A stretch of DNA of 64,000 nt from Deltaproteobacteria bacterium RBG_13_43_22 (GTDB taxonomy: Bacteria; Desulfobacterota; RBG-13-43-22), in NCBI GenBank assembly GCA_001797675.1, contig MGQB01000001.1, positions 137,968-201,967 on the forward strand. The letters run 5' to 3'. The notes under the pieces are model-generated. The model did not search any database. It was not told where the DNA came from and worked only from the letters and a program-made list of their open reading frames with translations. The position numbers were made by a program, and so were the translations under genes. Numbering within the stretch: the first letter of the stretch is position 1; every line of letters begins with the position of its first letter. Positions 1 to 38,267 of this stretch are shown one piece after another.

Positions 1-1787
1 GTATCCGTAGAACCGGGAATGAGATGGGCGGGGGATCGTAATTGATCCACCTGTAGATTCAGGCAAAGTAACCCTGAAGAAGGAACTCTTTGGGGGAAGT
101 TCATTACTAAATCGGTCCAAATCCCGGCGGGAAGATCGAAGGTGGTTTCTCCGAAAGGGACAAAGGAGAAACGGTCCGGACTATAGGCCAGTTTTAGGGT
201 TCCGGAAACCCGTTCGCCCAATAAAGGGTCGCCGCTGAAGGCTCTTACATAAAGTTGCCTATTCTTGGGCTTGGTTGAAAGATACACTTCGGCTCTCCGG
301 CTGGTCCACCGAACCTGTCCAGCTTCCCATTTTTCTAAGAAATACCACCCTGGCCCAAGTCCACGCCAGTCCTCTTTCCCCATTTGCAGGAACGGCTCAA
401 ATTCAGCTTGATGCAGATAAAGGGCTTGAAGATGGCTCCAACGATCATCATAACCATGATGTTTCCGCCGCCAGTGAATATTGGAATCAAAGTTTTCACA
501 TTTCTCCAAGTATCGTTTTTCCCGCCGGGCCACTTTGAGAAGGGCTTCATCATCATCGCAATCTTCCCTTAAAAACCCGTCCCAACCGACAACGACCCCT
601 AAGTTCCGAACGTCGTTTGTTGAAAATTCATAATCATTAGCCACCGGGTGGTCTGCCGGTTTCCATACAGGACCGGACAAAACAACAGGAAAGGTTACCT
701 GTTCGGCATCTTTCATCTGAAAAACAATTCTGACCGTCGTAAACATGCGATCCGGGGGAAGGCTGAAATGGGTGATCGGTCGTCCTTTTAGACTGATCGT
801 CCACCACCCCGGAGGAAGACTTTCCGGGACCAGATAAACCATATTCAGGTAAAATATCTGGTAACGGGCCTTGCTTGCAGGTAAATTGAGTCTGGCCTCT
901 GGTTGTGTCCAACGGAAGGGAGTGGTCAACATTCGGGCTATACCATCCATATCAGACCCATGCTCTTCAACAGGATAAAAACCGGAGATGGGCTCCACTT
1001 CTTCCGGATGAATTAATCTTATATGACTAAGACGAGCGGCCTCAACCAGGAGGGTTGAGCGAAATCGCGGCCAAAACCGGTCGATCAGACCTGCCAGTGA
1101 AGGCCTGGAGAATGGGGGGTCCAGACATTTGGAATAATGGACCTGTACTTTCCCGAATCGGTACATCTCTTTGTTTTGGCCTTCAAGCATATAGGCCAAA
1201 TCTGAAGCGGAATATTCTCGTATATGCCTGGTTGAGAGAATAGAACTAAAACTCTCATCGAATCGGCCGGAAATTTCAGAATGAATAGTACGTCCGCTTA
1301 TCATTCTAATTAAATTTTCCAGCCGATTGAGATTGGGGGTGGTGATCAGGATCCTTCCCCCCGGTTTGAGTACCCGGAATGACTCCCGAAGCAGCCGAAA
1401 GGGATTATAGTGGAGGTGCTCAATGATTTCTGAGGCCAGGACCACATCAAAAGATTCATCAGGGAAGGGGAAGTATTCGGATTCAACATCGTTCAAGGTT
1501 ATCAGGATATTGGCTCGGGAGAGTCGATCAACGATCATCTGAAGGCTGGGTGTGCTCTCGGTCCTTCCGGTAAGCCCGTCAACCTGAAAACCCAATTGAT
1601 GAGCCGCGACCGTTAGATGACCAGGAAAGGCACCCACATCCAATAGTCTCCGGCCTTGACCCGAGCCTAAGATCGCCAGGGTATCCAGAAAACGAGCGGA
1701 ATGATAGTCGAGGTAATGTTCTTCCCAGGGGAGCAGGGGTTCTCCCGCATACTGTTTTACCAAGGCCTTGAGTTCGTCGGTATTCAT
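1..1787 (-). CDS. Class I SAM-dependent methyltransferase with ~400-aa C-terminal extension (3' end runs off the window)
   Basis: Absent from the ORF track because it has no stop inside the window. Hand translation from the ATG at 1787-1785 stays open to position 1. Motifs: RRLLDVGAFPGHLT and FDVVLASEIIEHLHYNPFRLLRESFRVLKPGGRILITTPN (methyltransferase fold). The C-terminal part has two G-(F/W)-Y..E....RW-type segments (GFYPVEE...FRWTQPEA and GWYFLEKWEAGQVRWTSRRAE). The ATG lies 3 nt after the stop of the upstream gene. Confidence 0.7.
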   Translation of the reverse strand, partial: MNTDELKALVKQYAGEPLLPWEEHYLDYHSARFLDTLAILGSGQGRRLLDVGAFPGHLTVAAHQLGFQVDGLTGRTESTPSLQMIVDRLSRANILITLNDVESEYFPFPDESFDVVLASEIIEHLHYNPFRLLRESFRVLKPGGRILITTPNLNRLENLIRMISGRTIHSEISGRFDESFSSILSTRHIREYSASDLAYMLEGQNKEMYRFGKVQVHYSKCLDPPFSRPSLAGLIDRFWPRFRSTLLVEAARLSHIRLIHPEEVEPISGFYPVEEHGSDMDGIARMLTTPFRWTQPEARLNLPASKARYQIFYLNMVYLVPESLPPGWWTISLKGRPITHFSLPPDRMFTTVRIVFQMKDAEQVTFPVVLSGPVWKPADHPVANDYEFSTNDVRNLGVVVGWDGFLREDCDDDEALLKVARREKRYLEKCENFDSNIHWRRKHHGYDDRWSHLQALYLHQAEFEPFLQMGKEDWRGLGPGWYFLEKWEAGQVRWTSRRAEVYLSTKPKNRQLYVRAFSGDPLLGERVSGTLKLAYSPDRFSFVPFGETTFDLPAGIWTDLVMNFPQRVPSSGLLCLNLQVDQLRSPAHLIPGSTD

Positions 1788-1790
1788 GGA

Positions 1791-4700
1791 CTATCTCTGA
1801 CCTTCGCCTGAATCAAGCACTTCTATTCGATCAACCAATACATCGGTCTGACCTAAAAATTTTACCCGATATCCAACTTCACACTGAAAGGGAACGTTAA
1901 AATCCAACCGGACCGGTTCATAACCATCGGTTTTAAGGTCCTGGACCTTAACCGTTCTCTTGCTGAAAATCCTCTTTCCCATATCAGTGGCCACTTCTAA
2001 TAAGACAACATTTTTTTCTTTGCCAATGGGGGAAAGGTCTTTCAGGCGGATAAAAAACCCGGCCCGGTACAAACCCGGCTTAAAGGTCCGATAGGGGCCA
2101 TGACAAAGAAAAACAGGTGGATGGAATCCGGCCTTGCCGAATACCGCCTCTTTACCTGAGGCCAAAGTATCAGGAACCACCGTGCCGGTTTGACGAAGCA
2201 ACTCTTCGGCTTCAATCACTCCTGGTCCTGTGTTTTGGTCGGCAAAGCCGATGATCGCCAAGTTAAAATGCAAGGAAACCTTTCCTGAAAAATAGATCCG
2301 GAATCGTATTTCTCCCACCTGGGAAGTCTCAAATTCCAAAGGAACATCGATCCAAGTTCCGAAAGGGCTGACCTCTCGACCCAGAAAAACCTTTTGTTTT
2401 AATAGCTTATCACGGTCCTGGATAATTTCGAGTCGCCCCACTTCTTGCAGGGGATCAGCAGGTCCGGCCTTGATTCGAAATCTGGCCCTGTATTTCCCGG
2501 AAGGCAAATACCTGTTGGGCCCAAGAACCAGATATCCAGGGTGATCCTGACCGGGTGAGGCCAGAGCGACGTTACCCTTTGCACCGGGACGGGGAACCAT
2601 TTTCCCCTGAAGCAGAGCCTTTTCATCCATAAGCAAGTAATATCCGGAGGCCAAGGGATCCATTACATATCTTCCGGTTTCCTGTGGCAGGTAATTAGTA
2701 TAAAAAATAGTCGATACCGGTGAGGTAATGATGGACTCCTTTGACGAAAGATCGTTAATTAGATCCAGATTTGTTTTGGGTTTTACTCCCACCCCATTCC
2801 GCCCCCCTCTAAGGGGAAGGGTAGAAAAAAGAAAAATATCCTGATCGTGGTCAATAAATTTTAGAGAGGGGGAAGCCATCAACCGCTTCAAGGCCAGCCT
2901 CGGAGGAAAGGGACTGATCTTTTCCGGGTAGACCATAGAATTATCATGAAAAGTAATTAAATCAACTTTGAGTTTTTTTAATTTTTCTACCTGGTTCGGT
3001 TTAAATTCCCCATAATCCATAGGAAAGAGAGGCCAGAAAATTTGCCGAACATAATCCCGAACCACCACCGGGGCATATCCGTTTATCATGGGTTTTCGGG
3101 TTCTAGTAACCGTATATTCATAAGCTGAAGATTGATGGGAATCCCCAGGCCAGATAGGAAGTTCCAGGACTCGCTTCCCATCTGACAAACTTTTTTCGAT
3201 CTGCTTGTATATCCGATTATCCATGGACATTATAGAAATCCCTAAGGGTTGCCAGGTATGATATTCAGCCAATACTAAAAGAATAATCATTAAGGGAAGC
3301 CATTTCCTTAAGCGCATCCAGCCCCTTGAGGCTAAACCTTCCCGGATGGTGGTCACGGCCATTCCGGCCAGTAAACACAAGAAGATCATCCCTATCATCA
3401 AAAATCGACCAGGCACCCTGGAGTATTTAAAAAAAGGAAAATATTGGTAAAGAAATTGATAGAGGGGGAATGCGTTCAAAGTCGGCCCCAGAGTCAGGAT
3501 GGCGGCCAAAAAGGCCAGGACGCCGGCCAAAACCAAATGTCCCGGCTTTTTAGGGTTGCGTCTAAAAAGAGGAATCAGTCCAAAGACAGCCAATATGACC
3601 AATCCCCATCCCAAAAGAACAAACCGTTCAGAATTGATATCCTGCCAAAAGAGAAAATTGCTTGCTTTCGGAGAAAACATACGAATCTCGGCGATGGTCC
3701 GCCCCTTGCTGGCTACGGAAGGTAAAAAAACAGTAGTCCGGACATACAGCAGGTAAGCCGAAGCGATCAAAAACCCCGATCCCACCCCTATGATAACAGT
3801 CCAGATCCTTCTTCGGTCAAACATCAGAAGACGATCCCTTTGTTTAAGCCATTGAGCAATCAGGAGGAAGGAAAACAAACCCAAACATAATAGCATTACG
3901 ATCAGACCCAGGTGGGGAACATTGATTCGGGATTTTAAGGCATAAAGCCACAAAAGCAGGAAAATGAAAAAGAGTTTTCCCATCTGAAGACGGGCTTCGG
4001 CAAAGGAAAGGGTGGTTAATCTTGAAAATAAGGCGGACAGATAGAGCCAGATTAATAAGGTGGAAATGACCCCTAAAATCAAGGGTTGGAGCAGGTCAAG
4101 GTGCCAGAAGGGGAGTCCGGTTTTATTCCCGAATCGAATCCAAAACATAAATGAAATCGACAAACCACCGGTTAAAGCCCCAAAAAAACCGGTCCAAAAG
4201 GATATCCTTTTCCATCCTTGTCCTTGAACCAAAGGAAAGGGTTGAATGAGCAGGATGCGACTCGGCAAATAAGCCCCTACGGTCAGGGTCGTTAAAAAAC
4301 TGGTATGGGGATCCATCCAGGACATGAGAATAAAACATAATCCGGCCGCACCGCCGTAAACTTTTCGTCCGGTTGTCAAGGTCTGTTCTATAAAATACAG
4401 ACAAAGGGGCAGGAAAAAGATCACATACCCGGTGAGTTGGCCCCCGGCGATATGACTCACCCGATAGGGAAAAACTGCAAAAATGAGCCCGGCCATTAAA
4501 GAGGCCCAAAGGTCTTTGGTCCAGGTCCGGGCCAGGAGAAACATAGCCAATCCACAAAGCAAAAAAGATAGGAGAATTAATCCGTTATAAGCCCCGATAG
4601 ACCCCAAAGGCAAAAGAAGGACATAAAGGATTGAAAAAGGGAAATTGGCATAAACCGTGCTCATGGGTCCTGCCGGCCCGTTAAATTCATAGGGATTAGT

Positions 4701-4919
4701 CAAAAGGGACGAATTACCGAAAAGGTTGTCCGAAAAAAGCCAATACCAGTAGTAGGACTGCAGTTGATCGCCGGGCATCAGCGGAACCCGCTCAAAACCC
4801 GATATCGGTCTTAGGGTATAGGGGATAGAAGAAAAAAAATCCAGGGTCATGGGCCAGGTAAAAATGATCCCCGCCATCAGGAACAAGGCCAGGCAGAGGA
4901 CTATGGGACGTTTTGACAA
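1791..4919 (-). CDS. Large polytopic membrane protein, putative GT-C-type glycosyltransferase, with ~480-aa extracytoplasmic C-terminal region
   Basis: 1042-aa ORF with a TTG start and GAAGGA about 7 nt upstream. The N-terminal ~560 aa is a series of hydrophobic helices with an early loop PGDQLQSYYWYWLF. The C-terminal half is soluble and beta-rich, with two similar modules. Family assigned from architecture only. Confidence 0.55.
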   Translation of the reverse strand: MSKRPIVLCLALFLMAGIIFTWPMTLDFFSSIPYTLRPISGFERVPLMPGDQLQSYYWYWLFSDNLFGNSSLLTNPYEFNGPAGPMSTVYANFPFSILYVLLLPLGSIGAYNGLILLSFLLCGLAMFLLARTWTKDLWASLMAGLIFAVFPYRVSHIAGGQLTGYVIFFLPLCLYFIEQTLTTGRKVYGGAAGLCFILMSWMDPHTSFLTTLTVGAYLPSRILLIQPFPLVQGQGWKRISFWTGFFGALTGGLSISFMFWIRFGNKTGLPFWHLDLLQPLILGVISTLLIWLYLSALFSRLTTLSFAEARLQMGKLFFIFLLLWLYALKSRINVPHLGLIVMLLCLGLFSFLLIAQWLKQRDRLLMFDRRRIWTVIIGVGSGFLIASAYLLYVRTTVFLPSVASKGRTIAEIRMFSPKASNFLFWQDINSERFVLLGWGLVILAVFGLIPLFRRNPKKPGHLVLAGVLAFLAAILTLGPTLNAFPLYQFLYQYFPFFKYSRVPGRFLMIGMIFLCLLAGMAVTTIREGLASRGWMRLRKWLPLMIILLVLAEYHTWQPLGISIMSMDNRIYKQIEKSLSDGKRVLELPIWPGDSHQSSAYEYTVTRTRKPMINGYAPVVVRDYVRQIFWPLFPMDYGEFKPNQVEKLKKLKVDLITFHDNSMVYPEKISPFPPRLALKRLMASPSLKFIDHDQDIFLFSTLPLRGGRNGVGVKPKTNLDLINDLSSKESIITSPVSTIFYTNYLPQETGRYVMDPLASGYYLLMDEKALLQGKMVPRPGAKGNVALASPGQDHPGYLVLGPNRYLPSGKYRARFRIKAGPADPLQEVGRLEIIQDRDKLLKQKVFLGREVSPFGTWIDVPLEFETSQVGEIRFRIYFSGKVSLHFNLAIIGFADQNTGPGVIEAEELLRQTGTVVPDTLASGKEAVFGKAGFHPPVFLCHGPYRTFKPGLYRAGFFIRLKDLSPIGKEKNVVLLEVATDMGKRIFSKRTVKVQDLKTDGYEPVRLDFNVPFQCEVGYRVKFLGQTDVLVDRIEVLDSGEGQR

Positions 4920-4990: not shown

Positions 4991-7429
4991 ATGTCAAGCT
5001 TAGAAGAGTACCGGAACCGGCCAATGCGTAACACCTTCTATTTTCTAATCATTCTATCAATTGCTATTTTCCTTATTGCAATAACCATTCCGGTTCTTCC
5101 TTTTGATTCCGATCAGGCCATCGTGGGATTGATGAGTAAACATATCCTAAACGGAGCCTTCCCCTGGCTTTATTATGGGGACTCCTACAGCGGCATTCTT
5201 GAGCCCCTTCTGGTTTCCTGGTCTTTTCTGTTTTTTGGAATAAACCAGTGGAGTCTTCATCTGATTCCCGGGTTATTTTCAATCCTTTTTATCATTTCTA
5301 TTTATCAGCTTGCTCGAGAGCTTTTTAACCGGGAGATGGGCCTGCTCAGTATGCTCCTGGCCGCAATTCCCCTTTTTCCCATGGGTTACTATCGTTCCCT
5401 GGCCTATGGGGGATATATTGAAATCCTCTGGCTGGGCAATATTATTCTGCTGATCAGTCACCGTCTGGCACTTCAAAAAAAAGAGATATCTCTTTTACTT
5501 CTGTTCTTTTTTGGCCTCCTTTGGGGAATCGCCTGGTGGACCTATCCGATCAGTATTGTCTATCTCATAGCCGGTTTTTCTTTTCTTTTCCTTATCCGAA
5601 GGGAATTGGCCTTCAATGGCAAACTTCTATCCTCAATTTTTGGGTTCTTCCTGGGCAGTACCCCCTTCTGGATTTGGAATGGGCTGAATCAATTTCCATT
5701 CCTGTCTTTTTCCCAATCCCAGGAAAATCCTGATTATTTCTATCGATTCCAAAGATTCTATCATAAGTTCATAGAGTTTTTTACAACCGGTCTCAAGGGG
5801 GATGTAAATTTACTCGCTTTTATTACAGCCGCTTTTTTTGGACTAAGCCTCTTTTTTTTAATCATAGGCCATAAACGGCTTCGAAGGCAATTTCCGGCAA
5901 ACCGGGGATCTACCCTTCTATTGCTTTTTTTTCTGATTTTTTGTTCAACCTACATCGGCTCCCGGTTTAGTGAGCAGAACGCCTCAAGGTATCTCTTGCC
6001 CCTTTATTCCCTTATCCCTATCACTATGGCTCTGGTCTGTTACACCTTCAAAAAAACCAGGAAAATTATTTTTTTCGGTTTGTTCGCTCTTCTCTTTTTG
6101 ATCCATATCTATCACCAATTTTCCCTGAATCTTTTCTTACAAAACTTCTCGGTCCAACACCGGAAACAACTGGCGATTGAACAAACCCTTGTTGATTTTA
6201 TAAGAAAAAAAAATATATCTTATGTGTATACACCGGAATATTGGAGTGCCGCCAAGCTGACGTTTAATGCCAATGAGTATCCGGTCTTCTGCCAACCCTT
6301 TAAAGAGCGATACCCCCTCTACACCTTAAGGGCCGATGCCCTTCTCAACCCGTTCTTCGTCCTGGAAGGGAAATACCGCCAAAGCTTTGAAGAAATGTTT
6401 AAGGCCGCCGGGGGCTCGTATAAAAAAGAAGTTTTTTCGTCACAGGAAAAAATAAAAGGCTATGTCCTTTATTACGATTTTCACCCCCCGGTATCGGATG
6501 GTCTGGAAATTCTGCCTGATGGCTGGAAAGGGAAAAGCAATAGTAGCCCGGACTCGAAAGGTCTGGCTTTTGACCGCAATATATCCTCCTTTTGGACATC
6601 ATCCGCCCCGCAACAATCAGGGATGTTTTATCAAATCGATCTGGGCAGGGTTTACCAAATAAAACGGGTTGTCTTTGGGTGCGGCAAAGGGAAGGAAAGG
6701 GATTTTCCGGCCTTTTATCGGATAGAAATATCCGCCAAGGAGGGGGATTGGAAGAAAGTCGCCTCTGTTAAAAACAATTGGACCTATCTGTTTTGGTCCG
6801 GGGGACGTCCCTTCTGGAAATTAAAAGATGGTCGGATAGAAATCAATTTCTGTCCCCAGGAGGCCCGATTTATCAGGGTCACTCTGACTGGTCCGGCCCC
6901 TCAGGCCTGGTCCCTCGGGGAAATATTCGTTTATCAAACCCACGAGCGGCCTGAATCAAAACCCGTCTCCGCGGAAGAACTGATTTCATTCTTATCGAAA
7001 GAAAAAATAGAATATGTCTACGCCGACTTTGGACTATCCGCCCAAATCACCCATCACACACAAGGCACGATAAAATGCCTTCAGGAAGACTATGACCTCA
7101 CCTTTGGAGAGGATTCAGGCCTGGGAGGATATAATGGTGCCTTTCCTTATTTAAATCGGTTAAAAAAAGTTGTGGATTTTTCCCTTAGACCGGCCTTTGT
7201 GGTCGCCAGAGAAAACCAACCTTCTTTTATCCGAGCCTTGGATACAATCCATGTTACTTATTCAGTTAAAAACTTTCGAGATCATATCCTTTGCTATGGA
7301 ATAAAAGTTTCAGGGCCGGGGAAGATCAAAGGAGAAGGACGTTTCGGGTCTTTTTATTGGAATGGCACCCACCTGTTGCCTATGGGTCAAACAAAACAAC
7401 TTATTACCGGTTCCTCAGCCCCTTCCTGA
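4991..7429 (+). CDS. ArnT/PMT (GT39)-like GT-C membrane glycosyltransferase with one C-terminal F5/8 type C (discoidin) domain
   Basis: 812 aa. First-loop motif PFDSDQAIVGLMSKHILNGAFPWLYYG. About 11 hydrophobic helices. Discoidin-type segment AFDRNISSFWTSSAPQQSGMFYQIDLGRVYQIKRVVF ... ARFIRVTLTGPAPQAWSLGEIFVYQ (about nt 6503-6940). Clear paralog of the ORFs at 25994 and 35553. Confidence 0.75.
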   Translation: MSSLEEYRNRPMRNTFYFLIILSIAIFLIAITIPVLPFDSDQAIVGLMSKHILNGAFPWLYYGDSYSGILEPLLVSWSFLFFGINQWSLHLIPGLFSILFIISIYQLARELFNREMGLLSMLLAAIPLFPMGYYRSLAYGGYIEILWLGNIILLISHRLALQKKEISLLLLFFFGLLWGIAWWTYPISIVYLIAGFSFLFLIRRELAFNGKLLSSIFGFFLGSTPFWIWNGLNQFPFLSFSQSQENPDYFYRFQRFYHKFIEFFTTGLKGDVNLLAFITAAFFGLSLFFLIIGHKRLRRQFPANRGSTLLLLFFLIFCSTYIGSRFSEQNASRYLLPLYSLIPITMALVCYTFKKTRKIIFFGLFALLFLIHIYHQFSLNLFLQNFSVQHRKQLAIEQTLVDFIRKKNISYVYTPEYWSAAKLTFNANEYPVFCQPFKERYPLYTLRADALLNPFFVLEGKYRQSFEEMFKAAGGSYKKEVFSSQEKIKGYVLYYDFHPPVSDGLEILPDGWKGKSNSSPDSKGLAFDRNISSFWTSSAPQQSGMFYQIDLGRVYQIKRVVFGCGKGKERDFPAFYRIEISAKEGDWKKVASVKNNWTYLFWSGGRPFWKLKDGRIEINFCPQEARFIRVTLTGPAPQAWSLGEIFVYQTHERPESKPVSAEELISFLSKEKIEYVYADFGLSAQITHHTQGTIKCLQEDYDLTFGEDSGLGGYNGAFPYLNRLKKVVDFSLRPAFVVARENQPSFIRALDTIHVTYSVKNFRDHILCYGIKVSGPGKIKGEGRFGSFYWNGTHLLPMGQTKQLITGSSAPS

Positions 7430-14131: not shown

Positions 14132-14133
14132 TC

Positions 14134-16371: not shown

Positions 16372-16394
16372 AGATCAATCAACAACGAGAGATT

Positions 16395-20927: not shown

Positions 20928-20942
20928 TTTCTTGGACCTTTT

Positions 20943-32812: not shown

Positions 32813-33958
32813 TTGAATGTATTTCACAATATTGGCCCAAAAAAAATTATTCGGGAAGGACTGATTATTCTTCCTTTAGTTGCCCTGGGATTCCTGTCAA
32901 TTCTTTTCTTATATTCCTTAAAGTTTAATAAGAATATTACCGGCTTTATGGTCATAGGGGATTATTTTAAGGCCCCTCAAATTTGGACAGCCGAAACCCT
33001 CATTCAGAAAGACAGTGTCGGGTATGACGGCCAATACTACTATTATATCGCTCATGATCCATTCATCCTGGGACAATCCTATGACCATATAGATTTCCCG
33101 GCCTATCGTTATCAACGCATTATTTATCCCCTGTCCGCCTGGCTGCTGTCCTTTGGTCAACCGACCTTGATTCCCTGGATGATGATGGCAGTGAATCTCA
33201 TCGCAATCTTATTGGGGACCTGGTTTCTTATTATGATACTCCAACATTTTGGCCGTAGCCCATGGTACAGTCTGTTCTATGCCGGCCTCTGGGGATTTTT
33301 ACTTTGCCTTTTGCGCAGCCTGCCGGAACCGTTGGCTATCACTTTTATGGTCATGGCCGTCTTTTTTTATCTTAAAGGAAAAACCTTCCAGCAGACCCTT
33401 TTCCTTACCTTGGCCGGTCTCACCCAAGAGACCACCTTACTGGTTAGTCTGGCTTTCCTTTTTTACTTTTTCGGAAAAAAGGATTTTCGAAAATCCCTTT
33501 ATATGCTCTTACCTCCCGTGGCTTATTTCGTTTGGCAACTCTATCTTTATGCTCATTTTCAGACCTTTTCTTTTCTGGGGGGAACCCAAAATTTCGGACC
33601 CCCTTTCATGGGAATCACGGAAAAATTTTATTCTCTGAGCCAAGGGAGCCTCTCCTATGAAATAATTTCCGAACTCTTATTTTTATTTTTGATCTCCGTC
33701 CTTATCATCGCGGCCCTTTTTGACATCTTTAAATATTACAGTCCCCTTACCCTGTCCTTCCTGGGATATGCCCTGATGACCGCCTTATTGAATCATTTGA
33801 TCTGGGTCGAACCCTGGTCCTATGCCCGAGTCACATTAGGTTTATTGGTTTTTAATCTTTTGATCTTTACAAAATATGGAAGAAAGCTTAATCTGTTTCC
33901 TATGTTCCTGATTCCTGTTATCTTTTTGCTGTCCTTATTGTCGATGAAGCTGTTGTAG
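32813..33958 (+). CDS. Polytopic membrane protein (about 10 helices), possible small GT-C/PIG-V-like protein
   Basis: 381 aa from a TTG start; the true start is uncertain. The first extracytoplasmic loop contains SVGYDGQYYYYIAHDPF, which is reminiscent of the D-x-x-W/Y-Y..IA motif of PIG-V/GT-C-type mannosyltransferases (from memory). Confidence 0.45.
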   Translation: MNVFHNIGPKKIIREGLIILPLVALGFLSILFLYSLKFNKNITGFMVIGDYFKAPQIWTAETLIQKDSVGYDGQYYYYIAHDPFILGQSYDHIDFPAYRYQRIIYPLSAWLLSFGQPTLIPWMMMAVNLIAILLGTWFLIMILQHFGRSPWYSLFYAGLWGFLLCLLRSLPEPLAITFMVMAVFFYLKGKTFQQTLFLTLAGLTQETTLLVSLAFLFYFFGKKDFRKSLYMLLPPVAYFVWQLYLYAHFQTFSFLGGTQNFGPPFMGITEKFYSLSQGSLSYEIISELLFLFLISVLIIAALFDIFKYYSPLTLSFLGYALMTALLNHLIWVEPWSYARVTLGLLVFNLLIFTKYGRKLNLFPMFLIPVIFLLSLLSMKLL

Positions 33959-33968
33959 CTAAAAATCA

Positions 33969-34083: not shown

Positions 34084-35532
34084 ATGGTTAAAATTATTTT
34101 TAGACATTTAATGATCTTTCTCTCATGTCTCTATCTAATAACTGCCGGGTGTTCCTCCTCCCAAGACGCCAATTTCTCCGAACCTCGATGGGCAAAAAAA
34201 TACCTAATCGGTACCTACTATTACCTCTGGTATCCGGGGAACTGGCGGGAAGGATATATCAACGGCCGATTGCTTCCCCAGCAATTACCGGCCCTGGGAC
34301 AGTATGATTCCTCGGATCTGAAAACCATTGAACAGCATATCGCCTGGTCCTCTCAATACGGGATTGATTTCTGGGCTATCAGTTGGTGGCCGGACCATCC
34401 CGAATTGGACAAGATAATTCGAGAAAAAATCCTTAAGGCAAAAAATATTAATGATATTAAATTCTGTATCTTTTACGAATCGGCCGGCCTTGGACTGAAA
34501 GAGGATCGAATTGTTTTTACCTCTGATAAGAGTGAAAAATTGCTCTCTGACTTCAAGTTTTTAGCAAAAAACTATTTCTCCCACCCCTCTTATTTGAAAA
34601 TCAATGAGCGTCCGGTGGTTATCATCTATTTAACGCGGACCTTTATTGGAGATTACCCGGAGGCTATCAGTAAACTAAGAAAAAGCCTCCAAGAGATGGG
34701 GTTCAATCCTTTTCTTATCGGAGATGAAATCTTCTGGTATGTCATGCGCCCAAATCCTCTCCCTCCTTCCCCCCATCCAGAAATGAATCGGATCAAATTG
34801 TTTGATGGAATTACCGCTTACAATATGTATAATTGGGCAAAGCCAAAACAAATGGGTTATGGGAATCAGAGTACCTTTCTTTCTGAAGTTCAGGGGCGTT
34901 ACCGGGAGTACCAATTGGCAATCGATAAAAAAATCAAGCTTATTCCTTCCACCATCCCGGGTTATAACGACCGAGGGGTTCGTCTTTCAGATAATCATCC
35001 GGTAATTCCTCGTCGATTCGACCCTGGCGGGGAAGAGGGGTCTTTTTTCGTTCAAGCCCTTAAACAAACGGTTTTACCTTTTTTGGATCGAGAGATGCCT
35101 ATGACCTTGATCACCTCTTTTAATGAATGGAACGAAGGGACCCAGATTGAACCGACTCGCGAAACGAACGTCACCAGCCAGGATCACAGTCCCACCAAAA
35201 CCGATTATACTCAAGGATATGCTTACCAGGGCTATGGGGAAAAGTATCTTTCCATCCTCCAAAATACGTTCATGGCGGTTAGTGGGCAGGTGATGGATGA
35301 ACAAGGGGGAATTCCCCTGACAAAGGTTGATCTGAGGGTCTTTCAAGGAGAGACCCTGCTCGCAACTGCCTTGAGCGACAGCCGGGGATTTTACAACCTC
35401 TCCCGCCTGAATCTCCCACCCGGTCACTATGAAGTCAGGGCAAATACCCCCGGGTACCAAGAAATTAGGACCGGAATTCGAGTGGACGCAAACAAGAAAG
35501 CCCCTCTTATCCTTGAAATGAAGAAAAAGTAA
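34084..35532 (+). CDS. GH99-like glycoside hydrolase lipoprotein (endo-alpha-mannosidase family-like) with C-terminal CarboxypepD_reg-like beta-sandwich
   Basis: 482 aa. Lipobox LITAGC. Segments GTYYYLWYPGNW, LGQYDSSDLKTIEQHIAWSSQYGIDFWAISWW, IPSTIPGYNDRGVR and LITSFNEWNEGTQIEPT line up with the MANEA/GH99 sequences I remember. C-terminal module VSGQVMDEQGGIPLTKVDLRVF...GHYEVRANTPGYQ. Confidence 0.75.
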   Translation: MVKIIFRHLMIFLSCLYLITAGCSSSQDANFSEPRWAKKYLIGTYYYLWYPGNWREGYINGRLLPQQLPALGQYDSSDLKTIEQHIAWSSQYGIDFWAISWWPDHPELDKIIREKILKAKNINDIKFCIFYESAGLGLKEDRIVFTSDKSEKLLSDFKFLAKNYFSHPSYLKINERPVVIIYLTRTFIGDYPEAISKLRKSLQEMGFNPFLIGDEIFWYVMRPNPLPPSPHPEMNRIKLFDGITAYNMYNWAKPKQMGYGNQSTFLSEVQGRYREYQLAIDKKIKLIPSTIPGYNDRGVRLSDNHPVIPRRFDPGGEEGSFFVQALKQTVLPFLDREMPMTLITSFNEWNEGTQIEPTRETNVTSQDHSPTKTDYTQGYAYQGYGEKYLSILQNTFMAVSGQVMDEQGGIPLTKVDLRVFQGETLLATALSDSRGFYNLSRLNLPPGHYEVRANTPGYQEIRTGIRVDANKKAPLILEMKKK

Positions 35533-35552
35533 ACCGACAAGGGCTAATAAAA

Positions 35553-38267
35553 ATGTTCAAAAATACAAGAGGCCTCGTTTTATTAATGGCTTTAATTCTG
35601 TTGGTGGGGGGAATACTTCGCCTCCTCTTCCTGGTAACGCCCTATATGGATTCAGATCAGGCTGTTAACGGATTGATGGCCCGTCATATTCTCCAGGGAG
35701 AATTCCCTTTCTTTTTTTACGGTCAGGATTATTGTGGAAGTATTGAGGCCTATTTGGTTTCCACCGTCTTTTTTTTATTGGGTCCATCCCGTTTCATGCT
35801 CAATTCGGCCATCGGTCTGGAATCGCTCTTTTTCATCATCTTGATTTATTTTTTGGCCTGGACTATCGCCGATAAAAAAACAGCCCTCCTGGCGGCCTTG
35901 TTTACAGCCGTTCCTTCTTATTACTTGTTTTTCCACTCGGTCCTGGCCAGGAGTGCCTATATTGAAATACCGATCATCGGAGTCCTTCTTTTTATTATCA
36001 GCCAAAAAATAGTTTATCGTGATGAATCACAAAGCCGGAATTTTTTATTGTTGGGTTTTCTGTGCGGCCTGGGGATTTGGACCCATTTCTTAATCATTTT
36101 TTACCTGCCGCCTATCTTCCTTCTTCTTTTCATCAAAGACCAATGGTTCTGGGGCCGTCGGACCATCCTTTTCCTGTTACTGGGCCTGATACTGGGCGGA
36201 TTGCCCCTCTGGATTCATAATAGCGTCCATCCCCTGGTTACCTGGCATTATCTAATGAACACATCCGGGGGCTCAGAACCGGTTTTGACCTCTTTAAAGG
36301 ATTTTTTCCTCTTTCGTTTTCCAGAGGCCTTGGGATTGAGAAACAACGAAACCGCGAGATTTACTATACCTTATTTCTCACCGGTTCTGTATCTCATTTA
36401 CCTGGGTTCCTTTGTATTCCTGCTCATTTCTGGAAGAAAGGGCTTTATTCGTTTATTCAGACTAAAAATAGAACCGGACAATGGTCGAGTTCTGCTTCTG
36501 CTTTTTCTTTTGCTCTATCCGCTGATCTTTTCCTTCAGCGGATTTGCCTCGGCCCATACCAGCCGTTATTTGCTGCCGTTATTTTCAGTGTTGCCAATCC
36601 TGTATGCTGTTTTTACCAAAAAATTACAATCCTTTTATGGAGCCTGGGCATTTCTTTTTATAATCTTAACCCTTTTTTCCAATATTTATGGCACGGTTAC
36701 CAGGGTTCCCCTTTTCAATAATAACCAAGTCAAACAATTCCACGAGGCCAGAAAAAAGGAGCAAGATTTATTTAAATTCTTAAAAGAAAAAAATATTAGG
36801 CGGGTGTACTGCCATGACTATTGGATATCGGAACAATTAAAATTTGACTCCAAGGAGGAGATCATCTTCGCTCAACCTATGTATGATCATTATCCCCCTC
36901 ATACCGATTTGGTTGATCGGGACCCGAGAGCTGCTTTTCTTTTCCAGGGAGATAATAAGGATTTTGAATCCACTTTAAAAAATATCGGGGGCACCTTTCA
37001 GAAAAGCCAGGTCTTCGGATATAGTATTTATCATACCTTCTCCCCCCCCTCCTTCCGGTTTATTGAACTGGATCCGACCCCATTTACAGCGGCGGCCGAT
37101 TCCAATCCCATAGAAAGGATAAACATTTTTGATCGGGATCTGAATACCCGCTGGTCTTCCCAGGCCCCGCAGAAACCCGGGGTCAATCTCCAAATCGATT
37201 TGGGCCAAGTTGTTCCCAATCTGGGTCGGATCACCCTCTTGTCCGGAAAAACGGAAGATCTACCGCGGAGGATTCAGCTGGAAATCTCTCTCGATGGCCG
37301 AAAATGGCAAACAATTCGTGAAGCCACCGGGTTATGGGGGGACCTGTTCTGGTCCGGTCCCCACCCCTTTTATCGTCCCGGGATTGGTCGGGTCGATATC
37401 ACCTTTTCTTCCCGGTCCGGCCGTTTTTTAAGGCTGACCCAACTCGGGAGCGATCCAACTTATTATTGGTCCGTGGCCGAATGCTTTATCTTCCAGGCTC
37501 AGGCGCAGCCCACATCCCAACCGGCACCTTGGGATGTGACCCAATTGATTTCTTATTTAAACCGTTTTAACATCTCCAATATTTTTACCACCCCCTGGAT
37601 CCAATCCCAGTTACCCCTGGACTGGCGGGAAAAACAAAAGTCTTTGGTTCTCCAAGAAGGGAAGGATGGACAAGTCCAGACTCTTTCCAGTCCGGTCTTT
37701 GTGGTCGAGAAAGACAATTCAACTGCCTTGACCCATTTTTTAATAAATAATTTTAAGCAGCCTTATCAAGAACAGGAAATAAGCGGCCAGGTCGTTTATT
37801 CCTTTCCCCCGTCATCCGATCGATTTCGACCTCTCTCACCTAAGAATTGGCGTTTTCAGACTAATTATAATCCCCAAAAAGCTTCACTGGCCGCGGACGG
37901 GAAGATGTCCACCCGCTGGACCACAGATAGGCCGCAAGTCCCCGGAGCTTACTTTCGAATCGATTTAGGGCGCATGGAAAAGGTCGCCCGAATTCGTTTT
38001 TTAGTAGGGGAATCGATCAATGATTTCCCTCGAGGATATTCAATCCGTTATTCAGCTGATGGGCAAACCTGGACCTTATTGGACTCAATCATAAGTCCGG
38101 TTTCCCTCCATTGGACCGGGGAAACCCTCTTAAAGGGCGGAAAGGATCTGGATTTAACCTTTCCATCCACGTCGATGCGTTATCTTCAAATTAATAATAC
38201 CGGAAAAGACAACGTGTATTATTGGTCGATCCACGAGGTGGAGATTTATGAAAGGCAAAATAATTAA
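35553..38267 (+). CDS. ArnT/PMT (GT39)-like GT-C membrane glycosyltransferase with two F5/8 type C (discoidin) domains
   Basis: 904 aa. Loop motif YMDSDQAVNGLMARHILQGEFPFFFYGQDY. Discoidin-type segments DRDLNTRWSSQAPQKPGVNLQIDLGQ...YYWSVAECFIFQ (about nt 37060-37500) and DGKMSTRWTTDRPQVPGAYFRIDLGR...VYYWSIHEVEIYE (about nt 37840-38255). Confidence 0.75.
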   Translation: MFKNTRGLVLLMALILLVGGILRLLFLVTPYMDSDQAVNGLMARHILQGEFPFFFYGQDYCGSIEAYLVSTVFFLLGPSRFMLNSAIGLESLFFIILIYFLAWTIADKKTALLAALFTAVPSYYLFFHSVLARSAYIEIPIIGVLLFIISQKIVYRDESQSRNFLLLGFLCGLGIWTHFLIIFYLPPIFLLLFIKDQWFWGRRTILFLLLGLILGGLPLWIHNSVHPLVTWHYLMNTSGGSEPVLTSLKDFFLFRFPEALGLRNNETARFTIPYFSPVLYLIYLGSFVFLLISGRKGFIRLFRLKIEPDNGRVLLLLFLLLYPLIFSFSGFASAHTSRYLLPLFSVLPILYAVFTKKLQSFYGAWAFLFIILTLFSNIYGTVTRVPLFNNNQVKQFHEARKKEQDLFKFLKEKNIRRVYCHDYWISEQLKFDSKEEIIFAQPMYDHYPPHTDLVDRDPRAAFLFQGDNKDFESTLKNIGGTFQKSQVFGYSIYHTFSPPSFRFIELDPTPFTAAADSNPIERINIFDRDLNTRWSSQAPQKPGVNLQIDLGQVVPNLGRITLLSGKTEDLPRRIQLEISLDGRKWQTIREATGLWGDLFWSGPHPFYRPGIGRVDITFSSRSGRFLRLTQLGSDPTYYWSVAECFIFQAQAQPTSQPAPWDVTQLISYLNRFNISNIFTTPWIQSQLPLDWREKQKSLVLQEGKDGQVQTLSSPVFVVEKDNSTALTHFLINNFKQPYQEQEISGQVVYSFPPSSDRFRPLSPKNWRFQTNYNPQKASLAADGKMSTRWTTDRPQVPGAYFRIDLGRMEKVARIRFLVGESINDFPRGYSIRYSADGQTWTLLDSIISPVSLHWTGETLLKGGKDLDLTFPSTSMRYLQINNTGKDNVYYWSIHEVEIYERQNN

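What the first reader, a model, noticed from the sequence alone, without database searches (positions are those of the whole stretch)
1..38267. 38-kb island with at least nine GT-C-like polytopic proteins but a single cytoplasmic GT2 and no Wzx/Wzy/ABC/priming transferase
Seen: the large multi-helix proteins are at 1791-4919, 4991-7429, 7787-10366, 10413-13298, 22027-25464, 25994-28783, 28879-30777 (interrupted), 32813-33958 and 35553-38267. Each has a big non-membrane C-terminal region. The only classical Leloir-type transferase is the ArnC/GtrB-like GT2 at 20943-21797. I saw no recognisable Wzx flippase, Wzy polymerase, chain-length regulator, ABC exporter, WbaP/WecA-type priming enzyme or nucleotide-sugar synthesis genes.

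Established: GT-C enzymes use polyprenyl-phosphate sugars on the outer face of the membrane (ArnT, PMT, YfhO, mycobacterial Emb/Aft).

Inference: this is a periplasm-side, donor-lipid-fed glycosylation factory, mycobacterial-wall or protein-O-mannosylation style. It sits in what looks like a Gram-negative anaerobe, and its acceptor is unknown. By eye the island is more AT-rich than the right-hand 26 kb; I did not compute this.
Basis: partly seen in the sequence, partly recalled or inferred. Interest (0 to 1): 0.75.

Follow-up and report, generated by a model that had tools for sequence, protein, structure and literature searches.

The report
Multi-GT-C periplasmic glycosylation gene cluster
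A sediment sulfate-reducer-type bacterium carries a gene cluster of about 40 kb with eight or nine membrane sugar-transferases fed by one lipid-sugar-making enzyme; this is an unusually large version of a known way of decorating the cell surface from outside the cytoplasm, and its target is unknown.

Summary
The nine polytopic ORFs exist at the stated coordinates and take up about 60% of window 1-38267. GT-C status is solid for six. A has a high-confidence model whose best PDB matches are AglB, AftD, STT3, PglB and ArnT. B, E and I match PMT_2 and D matches YfhO. F is a full-length paralog of B and I. C is probable (AftA fold match, LA_3751/2 hit). G is only a remote DUF2298 relative and is broken here by one TGG>TGA SNP. 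H (AZOBR_p60025 family, 381 aa) is unresolved and has no large C-terminal domain.

The single GT2 resembles ArnC, DPMS and GtrB over its full length. Around it lie a flippase-like protein, an ArnD/NaxD-type deacetylase, an LpxD-like N-acyltransferase, a PaaK-like ligase, a KamA-type aminomutase, a B12 radical-SAM enzyme and methyltransferases.

No Wzx, Wzy, ABC exporter or priming transferase lies in the window or in 8 kb to its left. The cluster does continue past the left edge. In Desulfobulbales, A-family genes sit inside wzm/wzt O-polysaccharide loci.

My reading is an expanded three-component-type extracytoplasmic glycosylation locus in a Thermodesulfobacteriota MAG. It is a new variant of a known kind and its acceptor is unknown. 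The cluster is more AT-rich than the right side (43.1% versus 47.9% GC).

The parts
1..1787 (-). 5' 595 codons of a 609-aa class I SAM methyltransferase with a long C-terminal extension. It lies directly downstream of A and is cut by the window edge.
   Evidence: L085 1-14877 is 100% identical to window 14877-1. The gene called at L085 13091-14920 has Methyltransf_23/11/25 hits.
1791..4919 (-). A: 1042-aa GT-C glycosyltransferase from a family without a Pfam model. It has about 13 TM helices, a periplasmic alpha/beta domain and two C-terminal CBM-like beta-sandwiches.
   Evidence: AF2 pLDDT 86.8. Foldseek matches AglB, AftD, STT3, DPY19, PglB and ArnT, plus CBM51/CBM22. D51 in 'PLMPGDxLQ' after TM1 is invariant. 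hhalign to YfhO protein D gives 95.6%. No Pfam hit.
4991..7429 (+). B: GT-C (PMT_2) with a C-terminal F5/8 type C (discoidin/CBM32-like) domain.
   Evidence: PMT_2 35.6 bits against a cut-off of 26.1; F5_F8_type_C 1.2e-11. 'DSDQ' lies after TM1.
7787..10366 (+). C: 859-aa probable GT-C. It has TM1, an N-terminal beta-sandwich (about 30-145), a polytopic module (about 150-690) and a C-terminal CBM-like beta-sandwich (about 740-851).
   Evidence: NCBIfam LA_3751/LA_3752 putative glycosyltransferase 1.7e-13, below the cut-off. AF2 pLDDT 75.7. Foldseek matches AftA 8if8_B at E 2.2e-3 over 521 columns, plus many CBMs. D340 is invariant. Only 22 homologs in 5.8e9 proteins.
10413..13298 (+). D: YfhO-family GT-C, 961 aa.
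   Evidence: Pfam YfhO 4.6e-29, 101.8 bits against a cut-off of 28.5.
13520..14131 (+). Hexapeptide O-acetyltransferase, WcaF/maltose-acetyltransferase-like.
14134..15465 (+). PaaK/F390-synthetase-like adenylate-forming ligase.
   Evidence: PaaK models about 215 bits, below the equivalog cut-offs; AMP-binding_C_2.
15475..16371 (+). LpxD-like left-handed beta-helix N-acyltransferase.
   Evidence: NF002060 200.3 bits against a cut-off of 207; TIGR01853 196.6 bits.
16356..17504 (+). KamA-family radical-SAM amino-acid 2,3-aminomutase-like protein.
   Evidence: TIGR00238 131 bits and TIGR03822 137 bits, both below their cut-offs.
17514..18341 (+). Polysaccharide deacetylase (PF01522), the family I recall as that of ArnD, NaxD and LgmC.
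   Evidence: Polysacc_deac_1 1.2e-11.
18313..19323 (-). Flippase-like polytopic protein (MprF-TM / AglD / HpnL family). It is the candidate translocase for the lipid-linked donor.
   Evidence: PF03706 5e-58. TIGR00374 103.9 bits against a cut-off of 43.2. Nine hydrophobic segments.
19500..20927 (-). B12-binding radical-SAM enzyme, most similar to HpnJ and BchE.
   Evidence: TIGR03471 HpnJ 252 bits, below the 577 cut-off; B12-binding and Radical_SAM domains.
20943..21797 (-). GT2 polyprenyl-phosphate sugar synthase (ArnC/DPMS/GtrB/AglJ/PgfS-like) with C-terminal TM helices.
   Evidence: Glycos_transf_2 7.7e-36. Best PDB matches are ArnC 1.1e-18, DPMS 4.6e-18 and GtrB 1.3e-10 over nearly the full length. 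Hydrophobic segments at 209-271.
22027..25464 (-). E: GT-C (PMT_2/PMT) with a long C-terminal TPR domain, a TMTC-like architecture. It is the first gene of the unit E-GT2-rSAM-flippase.
   Evidence: PMT_2 1.7e-13, PMT 1.3e-9, TPR_19 1.3e-12. 'PDEQ' lies after TM1. Full-length E-like genes lie next to A homologs in Desulfarculaceae.
25994..28783 (+). F: GT-C paralog of B and I with two F5/8 type C domains.
   Evidence: blastp against B 7e-43 and against I 1.5e-47, full length. F5_F8_type_C 1.6e-22. 'MDEA' lies after TM1.
28879..30777 (+). G: 594-aa polytopic protein, a remote DUF2298/chlor_Arch_YYY-like candidate GT-C. In this strain it is split by a nonsense SNP at 30121-30123.
   Evidence: The codon is TGG in L001 and L004 and TGA in the window, L002 and L003. 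The family has 25 members. Its profile reaches genuine DUF2298 proteins. The C-terminal part hits TIGR03662 at 2.3e-5.
30774..31235 (+). Membrane-anchored PA14-domain protein; PA14 is a carbohydrate-binding fold (my knowledge).
   Evidence: PA14 7.5e-12. It is conserved next to G in L012 and L084.
31242..31469 (+). 75-aa hydrophobic ORF, called as a gene in all related contigs.
31490..32662 (+). 390-aa SAM methyltransferase.
   Evidence: Methyltransf_23 2.1e-7. A homolog lies in the syntenic block of L084.
32813..33958 (+). H: 381-aa polytopic protein of the AZOBR_p60025 'cell surface glycopolymer formation' family. Its fold class is unresolved.
   Evidence: NF046093 181.4 bits against a cut-off of 150. 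No Pfam or PDB hit. The loop at 35-100 after TM1 has invariant D50, D72, D82, D91 and D94.
34084..35532 (+). Secreted or anchored GH99/WbsX-like domain followed by a CarboxypepD_reg domain. It is probably a glycan-processing hydrolase.
   Evidence: Glyco_hydro_99 9.9e-14, Glyco_tran_WbsX 5.3e-12, CarboxypepD_reg 2.1e-10. N-terminal hydrophobic segment at 1-19.
35553..38267 (+). I: GT-C (PMT_2) with two C-terminal F5/8 type C domains.
   Evidence: PMT_2 29.1 bits against a cut-off of 26.1; F5_F8_type_C 4.3e-25. blastp against B 1e-79.
38440..38904 (+). Small membrane bPH-domain protein. It is conserved downstream of the I homolog, so it probably belongs to the cluster.
   Evidence: bPH_2 4.5e-4, below the cut-off. 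The I-bPH adjacency is kept in L084 at 57% identity.

Best explanation
This is an expanded three-component-type extracytoplasmic glycosylation locus.

Shown: the cluster encodes one membrane-anchored GT2 of the polyprenyl-phosphate sugar synthase class, a flippase-like polytopic protein, and six secure GT-C transferases (A, B, D, E, F, I). It also encodes one probable GT-C (C), one remote candidate (G) and one unresolved polytopic protein (H). Most of these carry CBM-like, discoidin or TPR domains.

Inferred mechanism:
1. On the cytoplasmic face, the GT2 loads a hexose or N-acetylhexosamine from a nucleotide sugar onto polyprenyl phosphate.
2. The lipid-linked sugar is tailored in the cytoplasm. 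Candidate enzymes are the PF01522 deacetylase, the LpxD-like N-acyltransferase with a PaaK-like ligase and a KamA-like aminomutase (possibly supplying a beta-amino-acyl group), the O-acetyltransferase, the methyltransferases and the B12 radical-SAM enzyme.
3. The TIGR00374/PF03706 protein flips the donor to the periplasmic face.
4. The paralogous GT-Cs each transfer the sugar to a different position, linkage or acceptor on a cell-surface glycopolymer. Their CBM-like modules hold the glycan acceptor.
5. The GH99-like enzyme and the PA14 protein trim or bind the product.

The acceptor backbone is most likely made by a conventional pathway encoded elsewhere, such as an ABC-transporter-dependent pathway. 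Gene content varies between related strains, as in serotype-determining loci.
For: - GT2: it matches ArnC, DPMS and GtrB over its full length, including the C-terminal TM region.
- Flippase-like protein: above the NCBIfam cut-off. It shares an operon-like unit with E, the GT2 and the rSAM enzyme, all on the minus strand with gaps of 16-230 bp.
- GT-C evidence.
- Catalytic-loop signature: every one of the nine proteins has an acidic residue in the loop after the first TM helix of its module. It is invariant in the A, C, G and H families.
- CBM-bearing GT-Cs are an established arrangement (EmbC, AftD, GT136 ORF12), as is the three-component scheme (PMC11127046).
- Context elsewhere: A-family genes lie inside wzm-wzt(Wzt_C)-methyltransferase-GT4 loci in Desulfobulbales. 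In Desulfarculaceae they lie beside E-like TPR GT-Cs, I-like GT-Cs and a GT2.
- Mosaic content among close relatives: the A-B pair is kept while C, D, G and H come and go. G is duplicated in L084 and inactivated here.
Against: - No acceptor pathway, priming transferase or nucleotide-sugar gene lies in the window or in the 8 kb to its left. Decoration of a glycan made elsewhere is therefore assumed, not seen.
- No GtrA-, SMR- or MATE-type flippase is present. Flippase activity of PF03706 proteins on polyprenyl-P sugars has not been demonstrated (notes that the function of HpnL is unknown).
- The roles of the tailoring enzymes rest on sub-threshold family matches.
- H, and to a lesser degree G and C, are not proven GT-Cs.
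- One GT2 feeding up to nine GT-Cs is equally what a de novo periplasmic polymerisation system would look like.
- There is no expression or biochemical evidence.
Confidence: 0.6

Rival explanations
1. The locus is a self-contained periplasmic polymerisation system in the style of mycobacterial arabinan or mannan. The GT-Cs together build a whole polysaccharide, residue by residue, from one (or a few) polyprenyl-phosphate monosaccharide donors onto a lipid or wall primer. No Wzx/Wzy or ABC pathway is needed.
For: One donor synthase serves up to nine GT-Cs, as DPA or PPM does in mycobacteria (summarises that system). A resembles AftD, and C resembles AftA. Several proteins carry CBM-like modules as Emb and AftD do. 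There is no PGT, Wzx, Wzy or ABC gene in about 46 kb. A GH99-like endo-hydrolase is present, as in many polymer-synthesis loci.
Against: There is no primer-forming enzyme and no DPPR-synthase or DprE-type donor pathway. A-family homologs in other orders are embedded in ordinary ABC-transporter O-polysaccharide loci. The variable, shuffled gene content and a tolerated nonsense allele of G fit accessory decoration better than an obligate assembly line. The rest of the genome was not inspected.
Confidence: 0.2
2. The locus is a protein O-glycosylation system of the PMT/TMTC/Pgf/AglD-AglS type. The GT-Cs mannosylate or otherwise glycosylate secreted, S-layer, pilin or outer-membrane proteins from a polyprenyl-P sugar.
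For: E combines PMT/PMT_2 with a long TPR domain, as eukaryotic TMTCs do (TMTC families are named in the PMC11292533 abstract). B and I match PMT_2, and I weakly matches TMEM260-like. The GT2 scores with AglJ and PgfS, and D scores weakly with PgfM2. A resembles the oligosaccharyltransferases AglB, STT3 and PglB. A type IV pilin-like ORF lies 3 kb to the right.
Against: The discoidin/CBM32-like and CBM-like modules on A, B, C, F and I point to glycan acceptors rather than peptide acceptors. No MIR domains were found, and no candidate acceptor protein is encoded in the cluster. All equivalog scores are far below their cut-offs. The WWD(YG) motif of OSTs was not examined in A.
Confidence: 0.12
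3. Part of the locus (GT2, deacetylase, flippase-like protein and one ArnT-like GT-C such as E) is a lipid A or LPS-core cationic amino-sugar modification system of the Arn/NaxD-FlmK/Lgm type. The other GT-Cs have unrelated targets.
For: ArnC is the best solved relative of the GT2. A PF01522 deacetylase is present. E gives a weak hit to the ArnT equivalog. The I discoidin domain weakly resembles chitosan-binding CBM32 modules, E 2e-3.
Against: The ArnT hit is 31 bits against a cut-off of 567. There are no ArnA or ArnB genes. E carries about 770 residues of TPR-rich domain that ArnT-type enzymes, about 540 residues long, do not have. This explanation accounts for only one of the nine GT-Cs.
Confidence: 0.06
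4. The central cassette (GT2, B12-rSAM, deacetylase and a PF03706 membrane protein) modifies a membrane lipid head group, by analogy with hopanoid HpnI-HpnJ-HpnK-HpnL. It would not make a glycosyl donor, and the GT-Cs would be functionally unrelated neighbours.
For: HpnJ is the top NCBIfam hit of the B12-rSAM enzyme. The PF03706 protein belongs to the same InterPro family as HpnL and AglD. By my recollection of the Burkholderia pathway, the four activities match the hopanoid side-chain set.
Against: The HpnJ score is 252 against a cut-off of 577. HpnI and HpnL models were not among the hits, and there is no SHC or HpnH in the window. The GT2 aligns with polyprenyl-P synthases including their TM region. 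E is co-oriented directly upstream of the GT2.
Confidence: 0.02

Closest known systems
Three-component periplasmic glycosylation systems (GtrA/GtrB/Gtr* of Shigella and Salmonella; CsbB/GtcA/YfhO of Bacillus and Listeria; the Citrobacter GT136 system; PMC11127046)
   Same: A polyprenyl-P sugar synthase, a candidate flippase and a GT-C transferase are encoded together. The GT-Cs carry CBM-like modules that could bind the acceptor glycan. The cluster is variable, like a serotype locus.
   Different: It has up to nine GT-Cs instead of one (rarely a few). The flippase candidate belongs to the MprF-TM/AglD/HpnL family, not the GtrA/SMR/MATE types. A seven-gene cytoplasmic tailoring set is included. 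No acceptor locus lies adjacent.
Mycobacterial and corynebacterial arabinan or mannan assembly (EmbA/B/C, AftA-D, PimE, Mpt with DPA or PPM donors)
   Same: Many linkage-specific GT-Cs draw on a single lipid-phosphate donor. A resembles AftD and C resembles AftA in fold. CBM modules are present.
   Different: There is no UbiA-type DPPR synthase or DprE1/E2, and the donor comes from a GT2. The host is a diderm Thermodesulfobacteriota. All genes are clustered rather than dispersed. Sequence identity to the mycobacterial enzymes is about 10%.
Arn (ArnC-ArnD-ArnE/F-ArnT), Francisella FlmF2-NaxD-FlmK, Bordetella LgmABC, mycobacterial PpgS-Rv3779
   Same: The logic is GT2 lipid-sugar synthase, then a PF01522 deacetylase or deformylase acting on the lipid-linked sugar, then flipping, then a GT-C (my knowledge of these pathways; the domains were found).
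   Different: There is no ArnT ortholog and no ArnA or ArnB. Extra N-acyltransferase, ligase and aminomutase genes suggest re-acylation of the amine. Many more GT-Cs are present.
Eukaryotic TMTC1-4 and PMT protein O-mannosyltransferases; Streptococcus mutans PgfS/PgfM1/PgfM2; archaeal AglJ/AglD with AglS and AglB
   Same: E has the PMT_2 plus TPR architecture. D is YfhO-like, as PgfM2 is. The GT2 scores with AglJ and PgfS. The PF03706 domain is the membrane domain named after AglD in InterPro.
   Different: All scores are far below the equivalog cut-offs. The CBM-type domains suggest glycan acceptors. There are no MIR domains.
ABC-transporter-dependent O-polysaccharide loci (E. coli O8/O9a-type wzm-wzt-wbdD-wbdA)
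   Same: In Desulfobulbales the A-family gene lies directly after wzm, wzt (with Wzt_C), a methyltransferase and a double GT4 gene.
   Different: None of these genes is present in this window.

Membership tests
GT-C fold glycosyltransferase superfamily | N-terminal polytopic module of about 7-13 TM helices | tested here: met
   Kyte-Doolittle scan gives 5-16 hydrophobic segments in each of the nine proteins. The AF2 models of A and C show helical bundles. This is a crude method; no DeepTMHMM was available.
GT-C fold glycosyltransferase superfamily | Extracytoplasmic loop after TM1 carrying a conserved acidic catalytic residue | tested here: met
   The acidic residues are A D51, B D39/D41, C D340, D D83, E D41/E42, F D61/E62, G E145/D146, H D72 and I D32/D34. 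They are invariant within the A, C, G and H family alignments. Sidedness was not determined.
GT-C fold glycosyltransferase superfamily | Significant match to a GT-C family HMM or to a solved GT-C structure | tested here: inconclusive
   Met for A (Foldseek), for B, D, E and I (Pfam above the cut-off) and for F (paralogy). Moderate for C. Only remote for G. Not met for H.
GT-C fold glycosyltransferase superfamily | Uses a polyprenyl-phosphate-linked sugar donor | not testable with these tools
   This needs biochemistry. It is supported only by the adjacent ArnC/GtrB-like GT2.
Three-component (Gtr-type) glycosylation system | GtrB/ArnC-class polyprenyl-P sugar synthase | tested here: met
Three-component (Gtr-type) glycosylation system | GtrA/SMR- or MATE-type small flippase | tested here: not met
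   No such domain was found in any scanned ORF. A TIGR00374 flippase-like protein is present instead.
Three-component (Gtr-type) glycosylation system | Acceptor glycan made by a Wzx/Wzy or ABC pathway | tested here: inconclusive
   Absent from the window and from 8 kb to its left. Present beside A homologs in other orders.
YfhO family (PF09586) | Score above the Pfam gathering threshold | tested here: met
   D scores 101.8 bits against a cut-off of 28.5. A is only a distant relative: hhalign 95.6%, no direct Pfam hit.
PMT_2 / GT39-GT83-like (PF13231) | Score above the gathering threshold | tested here: met
   B scores 35.6, E 51.5 and I 29.1 bits against a cut-off of 26.1. F has no direct hit.
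ArnT (lipid A Ara4N transferase) orthologs | Equivalog score, with ArnA/B/D/E/F partners | tested here: not met
   E scores 31.2 bits against a cut-off of 567. No ArnA or ArnB genes are present.
DUF2298 / chlor_Arch_YYY (PF10060, TIGR03662) | Direct HMM match above the cut-off | tested here: not met
   G has no Pfam hit even at E<=10, and TIGR03662 scores 23 bits against a cut-off of 300. The link is only transitive, through profile hits. That DUF2298 belongs to Pfam's GT-C clan is my recollection and was not checked here.
AZOBR_p60025 family (NF046093) | Score above the NCBIfam cut-off | tested here: met
   H scores 181.4 bits against a cut-off of 150. No paper in the library mentions the family.
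Mycobacterial Emb/Aft arabinosyltransferase system | DPA donor pathway (UbiA-type DPPR synthase, DprE1/E2) | tested here: not met
   No such domains were found in the window.
Hopanoid side-chain cassette HpnI/J/K/L | Equivalog scores, with SHC and HpnH in the neighbourhood | tested here: not met
   HpnJ scores 252 bits against a cut-off of 577. There are no HpnI or HpnL hits and no SHC or HpnH.

The most novel reading that the evidence does not exclude
A diderm Thermodesulfobacteriota builds a complete surface heteropolysaccharide in the periplasm using only GT-C enzymes, as mycobacteria build arabinan. The enzymes would include three lineage-restricted GT-C families with no Pfam model (A, C, G). 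The donor would be a single polyprenyl-phosphate sugar tailored in the cytoplasm, possibly a hexosamine that is deacetylated and then re-acylated with a beta-amino acid, and it would be flipped by an MprF/AglD-type membrane protein.
Probability: 0.2. Interest if true: 0.8.

Novelty: new variant of a known kind. Interest (0 to 1): 0.5.

Why it matters
Extracytoplasmic glycosylation from polyprenyl-phosphate sugars is well studied in a few pathogens, usually with one GT-C per system. This locus shows an environmental anaerobe packing up to nine such enzymes around one donor synthase. Three of the families (A, C, G) are invisible to Pfam. A was found in 195 loci across the 185,579 reference species genomes, while C and G have only about 20-25 homologs among 5.8 billion proteins.

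If the mechanism holds, the locus offers three things:
- New GT-C families for CAZy-type classification, with a confident structural model for A.
- A candidate role for PF03706 'flippase-like' proteins in moving lipid-linked sugars. This bears on the unexplained HpnL and AglD domains.
- A possible new N-acylated amino-sugar donor.

It also gives a handle on the surface chemistry of uncultured sulfate-reducer relatives in sediments.

Tried and rejected
- A genome-contig scan with protein E found no relatives. The second scan, with the A alignment, worked.
- Sequence searches of the PDB with A, the A family profile, the G family profile and the H family profile gave nothing meaningful. E and I hit only TPR and CBM32 chains. 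The flippase-like protein hit nothing.
- Pfam at E<=10 gave no hit for A, C, G or H.
- hhalign of G against A gave 21% and against C 0.5%. hhalign of H against A, C and G gave at most 4.6%. None is significant. The GT-C status of G rests on the 1.84-billion-protein profile search, and that of H stays open.
- A metagenome scan for H gave only three loci, too few for a deep profile.
- Literature searches for AZOBR_p60025 (0 papers) and DUF2298 (2 irrelevant papers) gave nothing. The search on flippase-like proteins and PF03706 gave nothing relevant.
- I could not fetch the 390-kb NCBI contig, because P0069 is not on record. I could not look up the MAG name in the taxonomy tool.
- I rejected a mobile genomic island. 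There is no tRNA, no Rfam hit and no integrase or transposase domain, and synteny is conserved in relatives. The lower GC is real and also holds at third codon positions. That is typical of surface-glycan loci and does not prove transfer.
- I rejected WbsX as a second Leloir glycosyltransferase. The ORF at 34084 has an N-terminal hydrophobic segment, a GH99 match and a CarboxypepD_reg domain, so it is more likely an exported hydrolase.

Full report
**Source of the window.** The window is 100% identical over the regions compared to JGI metagenome contig Ga0214473_10000504 and 99.9% or more identical to two ENA contigs. Protein C is 100% identical to a protein of 'Deltaproteobacteria bacterium RBG_13_43_22'. 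Homologs of A come almost only from Thermodesulfobacteriota (Desulfarculales, Desulfobulbales, Desulfomonile), with a few from Verrucomicrobiota. The right-hand 26 kb carries housekeeping and stress genes: GlnA, glutamate-synthase parts, MTHFR, UvrD, ThiF, peroxiredoxins and Hsp20.

**The observation.** All nine ORFs exist as listed and are polytopic. They occupy 23.0 kb of the 38.3 kb. I label them as follows.
- A: 1791-4919, minus strand
- B: 4991-7429
- C: 7787-10366
- D: 10413-13298
- E: 22027-25464, minus strand
- F: 25994-28783
- G: 28879-30777
- H: 32813-33958
- I: 35553-38267

**Direct family matches.**
- B, E and I match PMT_2 (E also PMT), and D matches YfhO, all above the curated cut-offs.
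- B, F and I carry F5/8 type C (discoidin) domains, and E carries a long TPR region.
- F has no GT-C hit above threshold, but it aligns end to end with B (E 7e-43) and I (E 1.5e-47).
- A, C, G and H have no Pfam hit even at E<=10.

**Protein A.** Its family has 68 hits among 5.8 billion proteins. All named hits are 'hypothetical', and only one remote hit has a Pfam domain (DUF6311). A 24-sequence alignment shows an invariant Asp51 in 'PLMPGDxLQ' just after TM1. The AlphaFold model is confident (pLDDT 86.8, pTM 0.84). Its best PDB matches are all GT-C enzymes: AglB, AftD, STT3, DPY19, PglB, ArnT and EmbB. The two C-terminal beta-sandwiches match CBM51 and CBM22 modules. hhalign links the A family to the YfhO protein D at 95.6% probability. 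blastp bridges through DUF6311-type proteins agree. A is a GT-C of a family not covered by Pfam.

**Protein C.** It has only 22 homologs. The model is of medium quality (pLDDT 75.7). It shows TM1, a beta-sandwich, a helical bundle and a C-terminal beta-sandwich. Foldseek returns many CBMs. For the membrane part it returns AftA at E 2.2e-3, 521 columns and TM 0.39. NCBIfam gives LA_3751/LA_3752 'putative glycosyltransferase' at 1.7e-13, below its cut-off. D340 is invariant. C is a probable GT-C.

**Protein G.** It has 25 homologs, all unannotated, and some occur in tandem arrays in other MAGs.
- It is split in the window by TGA at 30121-30123. Two other assemblies have TGG (Trp) there and encode an intact 594-aa protein. 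This is a population-level nonsense allele.
- A profile of the family was searched against 1.84 billion representatives and found 227 proteins.
- The close ones have no Pfam domain.
- More distant hits, at E 5e-7 to 9e-5, are genuine DUF2298 proteins with Pfam E values down to 1e-110. They align over the 'PPxDP...Y..W' region after the first loop.
- The C-terminal piece also hits TIGR03662 (chlor_Arch_YYY) weakly.
- I recall DUF2298 being in Pfam's GT-C clan, but I could not verify that here.
- G is a candidate GT-C and is not proven.

**Protein H.** It scores above the cut-off for NCBIfam AZOBR_p60025, 'cell surface glycopolymer formation protein'. No paper in the library mentions that family.
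- It is 381 aa, and its last hydrophobic segment is at 359-377.
- It has a 65-residue loop after TM1 with five invariant Asp residues, including 'GYDGQYYYY'. That looks GT-C-like.
- PDB and profile-profile searches were negative or not significant.
- A Wzy/EpsG-like identity is not excluded.

**The rest of the cluster.**
- GT2 (20943-21797): it aligns nearly full-length with ArnC (1e-18), archaeal DPMS (5e-18) and GtrB (1e-10). It scores with AglJ, PgfS and PpgS, and it has C-terminal hydrophobic segments. It is a polyprenyl-phosphate sugar synthase and the only Leloir-type GT in the window.
- Downstream of the GT2 on the same strand lie an HpnJ/BchE-like B12 radical-SAM enzyme and a TIGR00374 flippase-like protein (PF03706, 5e-58). 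E lies upstream, so E-GT2-rSAM-flippase form one co-oriented unit.
- The converging plus-strand unit B-C-D continues with these genes:
  - a WcaF-like O-acetyltransferase
  - a PaaK-like ligase
  - an LpxD-like N-acyltransferase (200 bits against a cut-off of 207)
  - a KamA-family aminomutase
  - a PF01522 deacetylase
- The third unit is F-G-PA14-75aa-methyltransferase-H-GH99/WbsX-like-I-bPH.

**Boundaries.** The window starts inside a 609-aa methyltransferase gene that directly follows A. The next 8 kb to the left encode the following:
- an outer-membrane beta-barrel protein
- proteins that by eye look like a lipoprotein, a PA14-like membrane protein and a GDS(L)-motif protein
- another methyltransferase
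- a second PF03706 protein
- another hexapeptide transferase

The cluster is therefore at least about 46 kb, and its left end was not reached. On the right, bPH (38440-38904) is conserved next to the I homolog in L084.

No Wzx, Wzy, Wzz, ABC, PGT or nucleotide-sugar synthesis domain was found anywhere in the window. None is on record for the genes called in the left extension.

**Composition.** GC is 0.431 for 1-38267 and 0.479 for the rest, and GC3 is 0.466 against 0.561. The change is gradual, though, since 38-48 kb is 0.448. There is no tRNA, no Rfam element and no integrase or transposase domain. I see no evidence for a mobile element.

**Comparative context.**
- Close relatives (59-66% identity in A) keep the divergent A-B pair, but C, D, G and H are variably present.
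- A 340-kb contig (L084) keeps the right-hand module at 40-60% identity. Its order is D, I-like, G, G, PA14, methyltransferase, GT2, H, GH99-like, I, bPH. It has a duplicated G and an extra GT2.
- In Desulfarculaceae, A (35%) sits next to a full-length E-like TPR GT-C. In the loci examined (L028, L058) it also has an I-like GT-C and a GT2. Pfam matches among the neighbouring genes of the surveyed loci include PMT_2 and PA14.
- In Desulfobulbales, A (27%, full length) lies immediately after wzm, wzt (with the Wzt_C domain), a methyltransferase and a double GT4 gene. It is followed by an Acyl_transf_3 gene, another methyltransferase and a GT4. That is a classical ABC-transporter-dependent O-polysaccharide locus.
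- This is the best available clue to the acceptor class. It favours post-polymerisation decoration of a polysaccharide.

**Mechanism.**
- Shown: the gene content listed above.
- Established knowledge (PMC11127046): GT-C enzymes use lipid-phosphate sugars on the outer face of the membrane. Three-component systems combine a synthase, a flippase and a GT-C. CBMs on GT-Cs bind the acceptor glycan.
- Inferred: the GT2 makes a polyprenyl-P sugar, and the cytoplasmic enzymes tailor it. The model here is ArnC-ArnD, FlmF2-NaxD, LgmA-LgmC and PpgS, which I cite from my own knowledge of those pathways. The ligase, aminomutase and N-acyltransferase trio suggests re-acylation of a free amine with a beta-amino acid.
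- Inferred: the PF03706 protein flips the donor. This family is named after MprF's TM domain and AglD, and HpnL's role is still unknown. The paralogous GT-Cs then place the sugar at different sites.
- I put 0.6 on this general model. I put 0.2 on the more novel alternative that the GT-Cs polymerise the whole glycan in the periplasm, as in mycobacteria. Protein O-glycosylation, lipid A modification and a hopanoid-like lipid cassette each get lower weight.

**Verdict.** The cluster is an unusually GT-C-dense variant of a known strategy. It includes a structurally confirmed new GT-C family (A) and two further lineage-restricted candidate families (C, G). Its acceptor, its donor and the role of H remain unknown.

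Noticed in passing
window 30121-30123: G is inactivated by one G>A change (TGG Trp to TGA). The stop allele is in the window, the JGI contig and one ENA contig. Two other ENA assemblies of the same population have the intact 594-aa gene. This is a segregating loss-of-function allele in a surface-glycan gene.
   Followed up: yes
L051 4314-18583 (also L053, L054, L057, L072, L078): In Desulfobulbales (Desulfocapsa and relatives), the A-family GT-C is embedded in a conserved operon: wzm, wzt(Wzt_C), methyltransferase, double GT4, A, Acyl_transf_3, an unknown gene, an FAD oxidoreductase, a methyltransferase and a GT4. That is an ABC-transporter-type O-polysaccharide locus.
   Followed up: partly
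L085 13091-23087 (left of window position 1): The cluster continues beyond the window. It holds the 609-aa methyltransferase, an OMP beta-barrel, proteins that by eye look like a GDS(L)-motif protein, a PA14-like membrane protein and a lipoprotein, a second methyltransferase, a second PF03706 flippase-like gene and a hexapeptide transferase.
   Followed up: partly
L084 3473-7195; P0101, P0106, P0107: G-family genes occur as tandem duplicates or triplicates in related MAGs. This suggests rapid paralog turnover in a family with only about 25 members in the word-indexed search of 5.8 billion proteins.
   Followed up: no
window 41534-41905 (-) and 41977-42378 (-): A 123-aa ORF has a type IV pilin-like N-terminus ('GFSLLELMVALGIL'), recognised by eye. 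Beside it is a small protein that looks like a receiver domain. They lie 3 kb right of the cluster. A link to glycosylation is possible but untested.
   Followed up: no
window 42826-43254 (+): A 142-aa ORF looks by eye like the N- and C-terminal pieces of an acyl-CoA dehydrogenase joined together. It is probably a gene remnant.
   Followed up: no
window 35553-38267, residues 776-899 of I: The last discoidin domain of I weakly resembles (E 2e-3) the chitosan-binding CBM32 modules of a Paenibacillus glucanase/chitosanase. This is a faint hint that the acceptor or product contains de-N-acetylated hexosamine, in line with the deacetylase in the cluster.
   Followed up: no
window 48710-50167 (-): An HpaB-family protein is encoded in a presumed anaerobe. 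By my knowledge this Pfam family also contains 4-hydroxybutyryl-CoA dehydratase, which is the likelier function here.
   Followed up: no
window 19500-21797 with 17514-19323: The set GT2, HpnJ-like B12 radical-SAM enzyme, PF03706 membrane protein and deacetylase mirrors the four activities of the hopanoid side-chain genes HpnI, J, L and K. There is no SHC or HpnH nearby. The radical-SAM enzyme may rearrange or methylate a lipid-linked sugar.
   Followed up: partly
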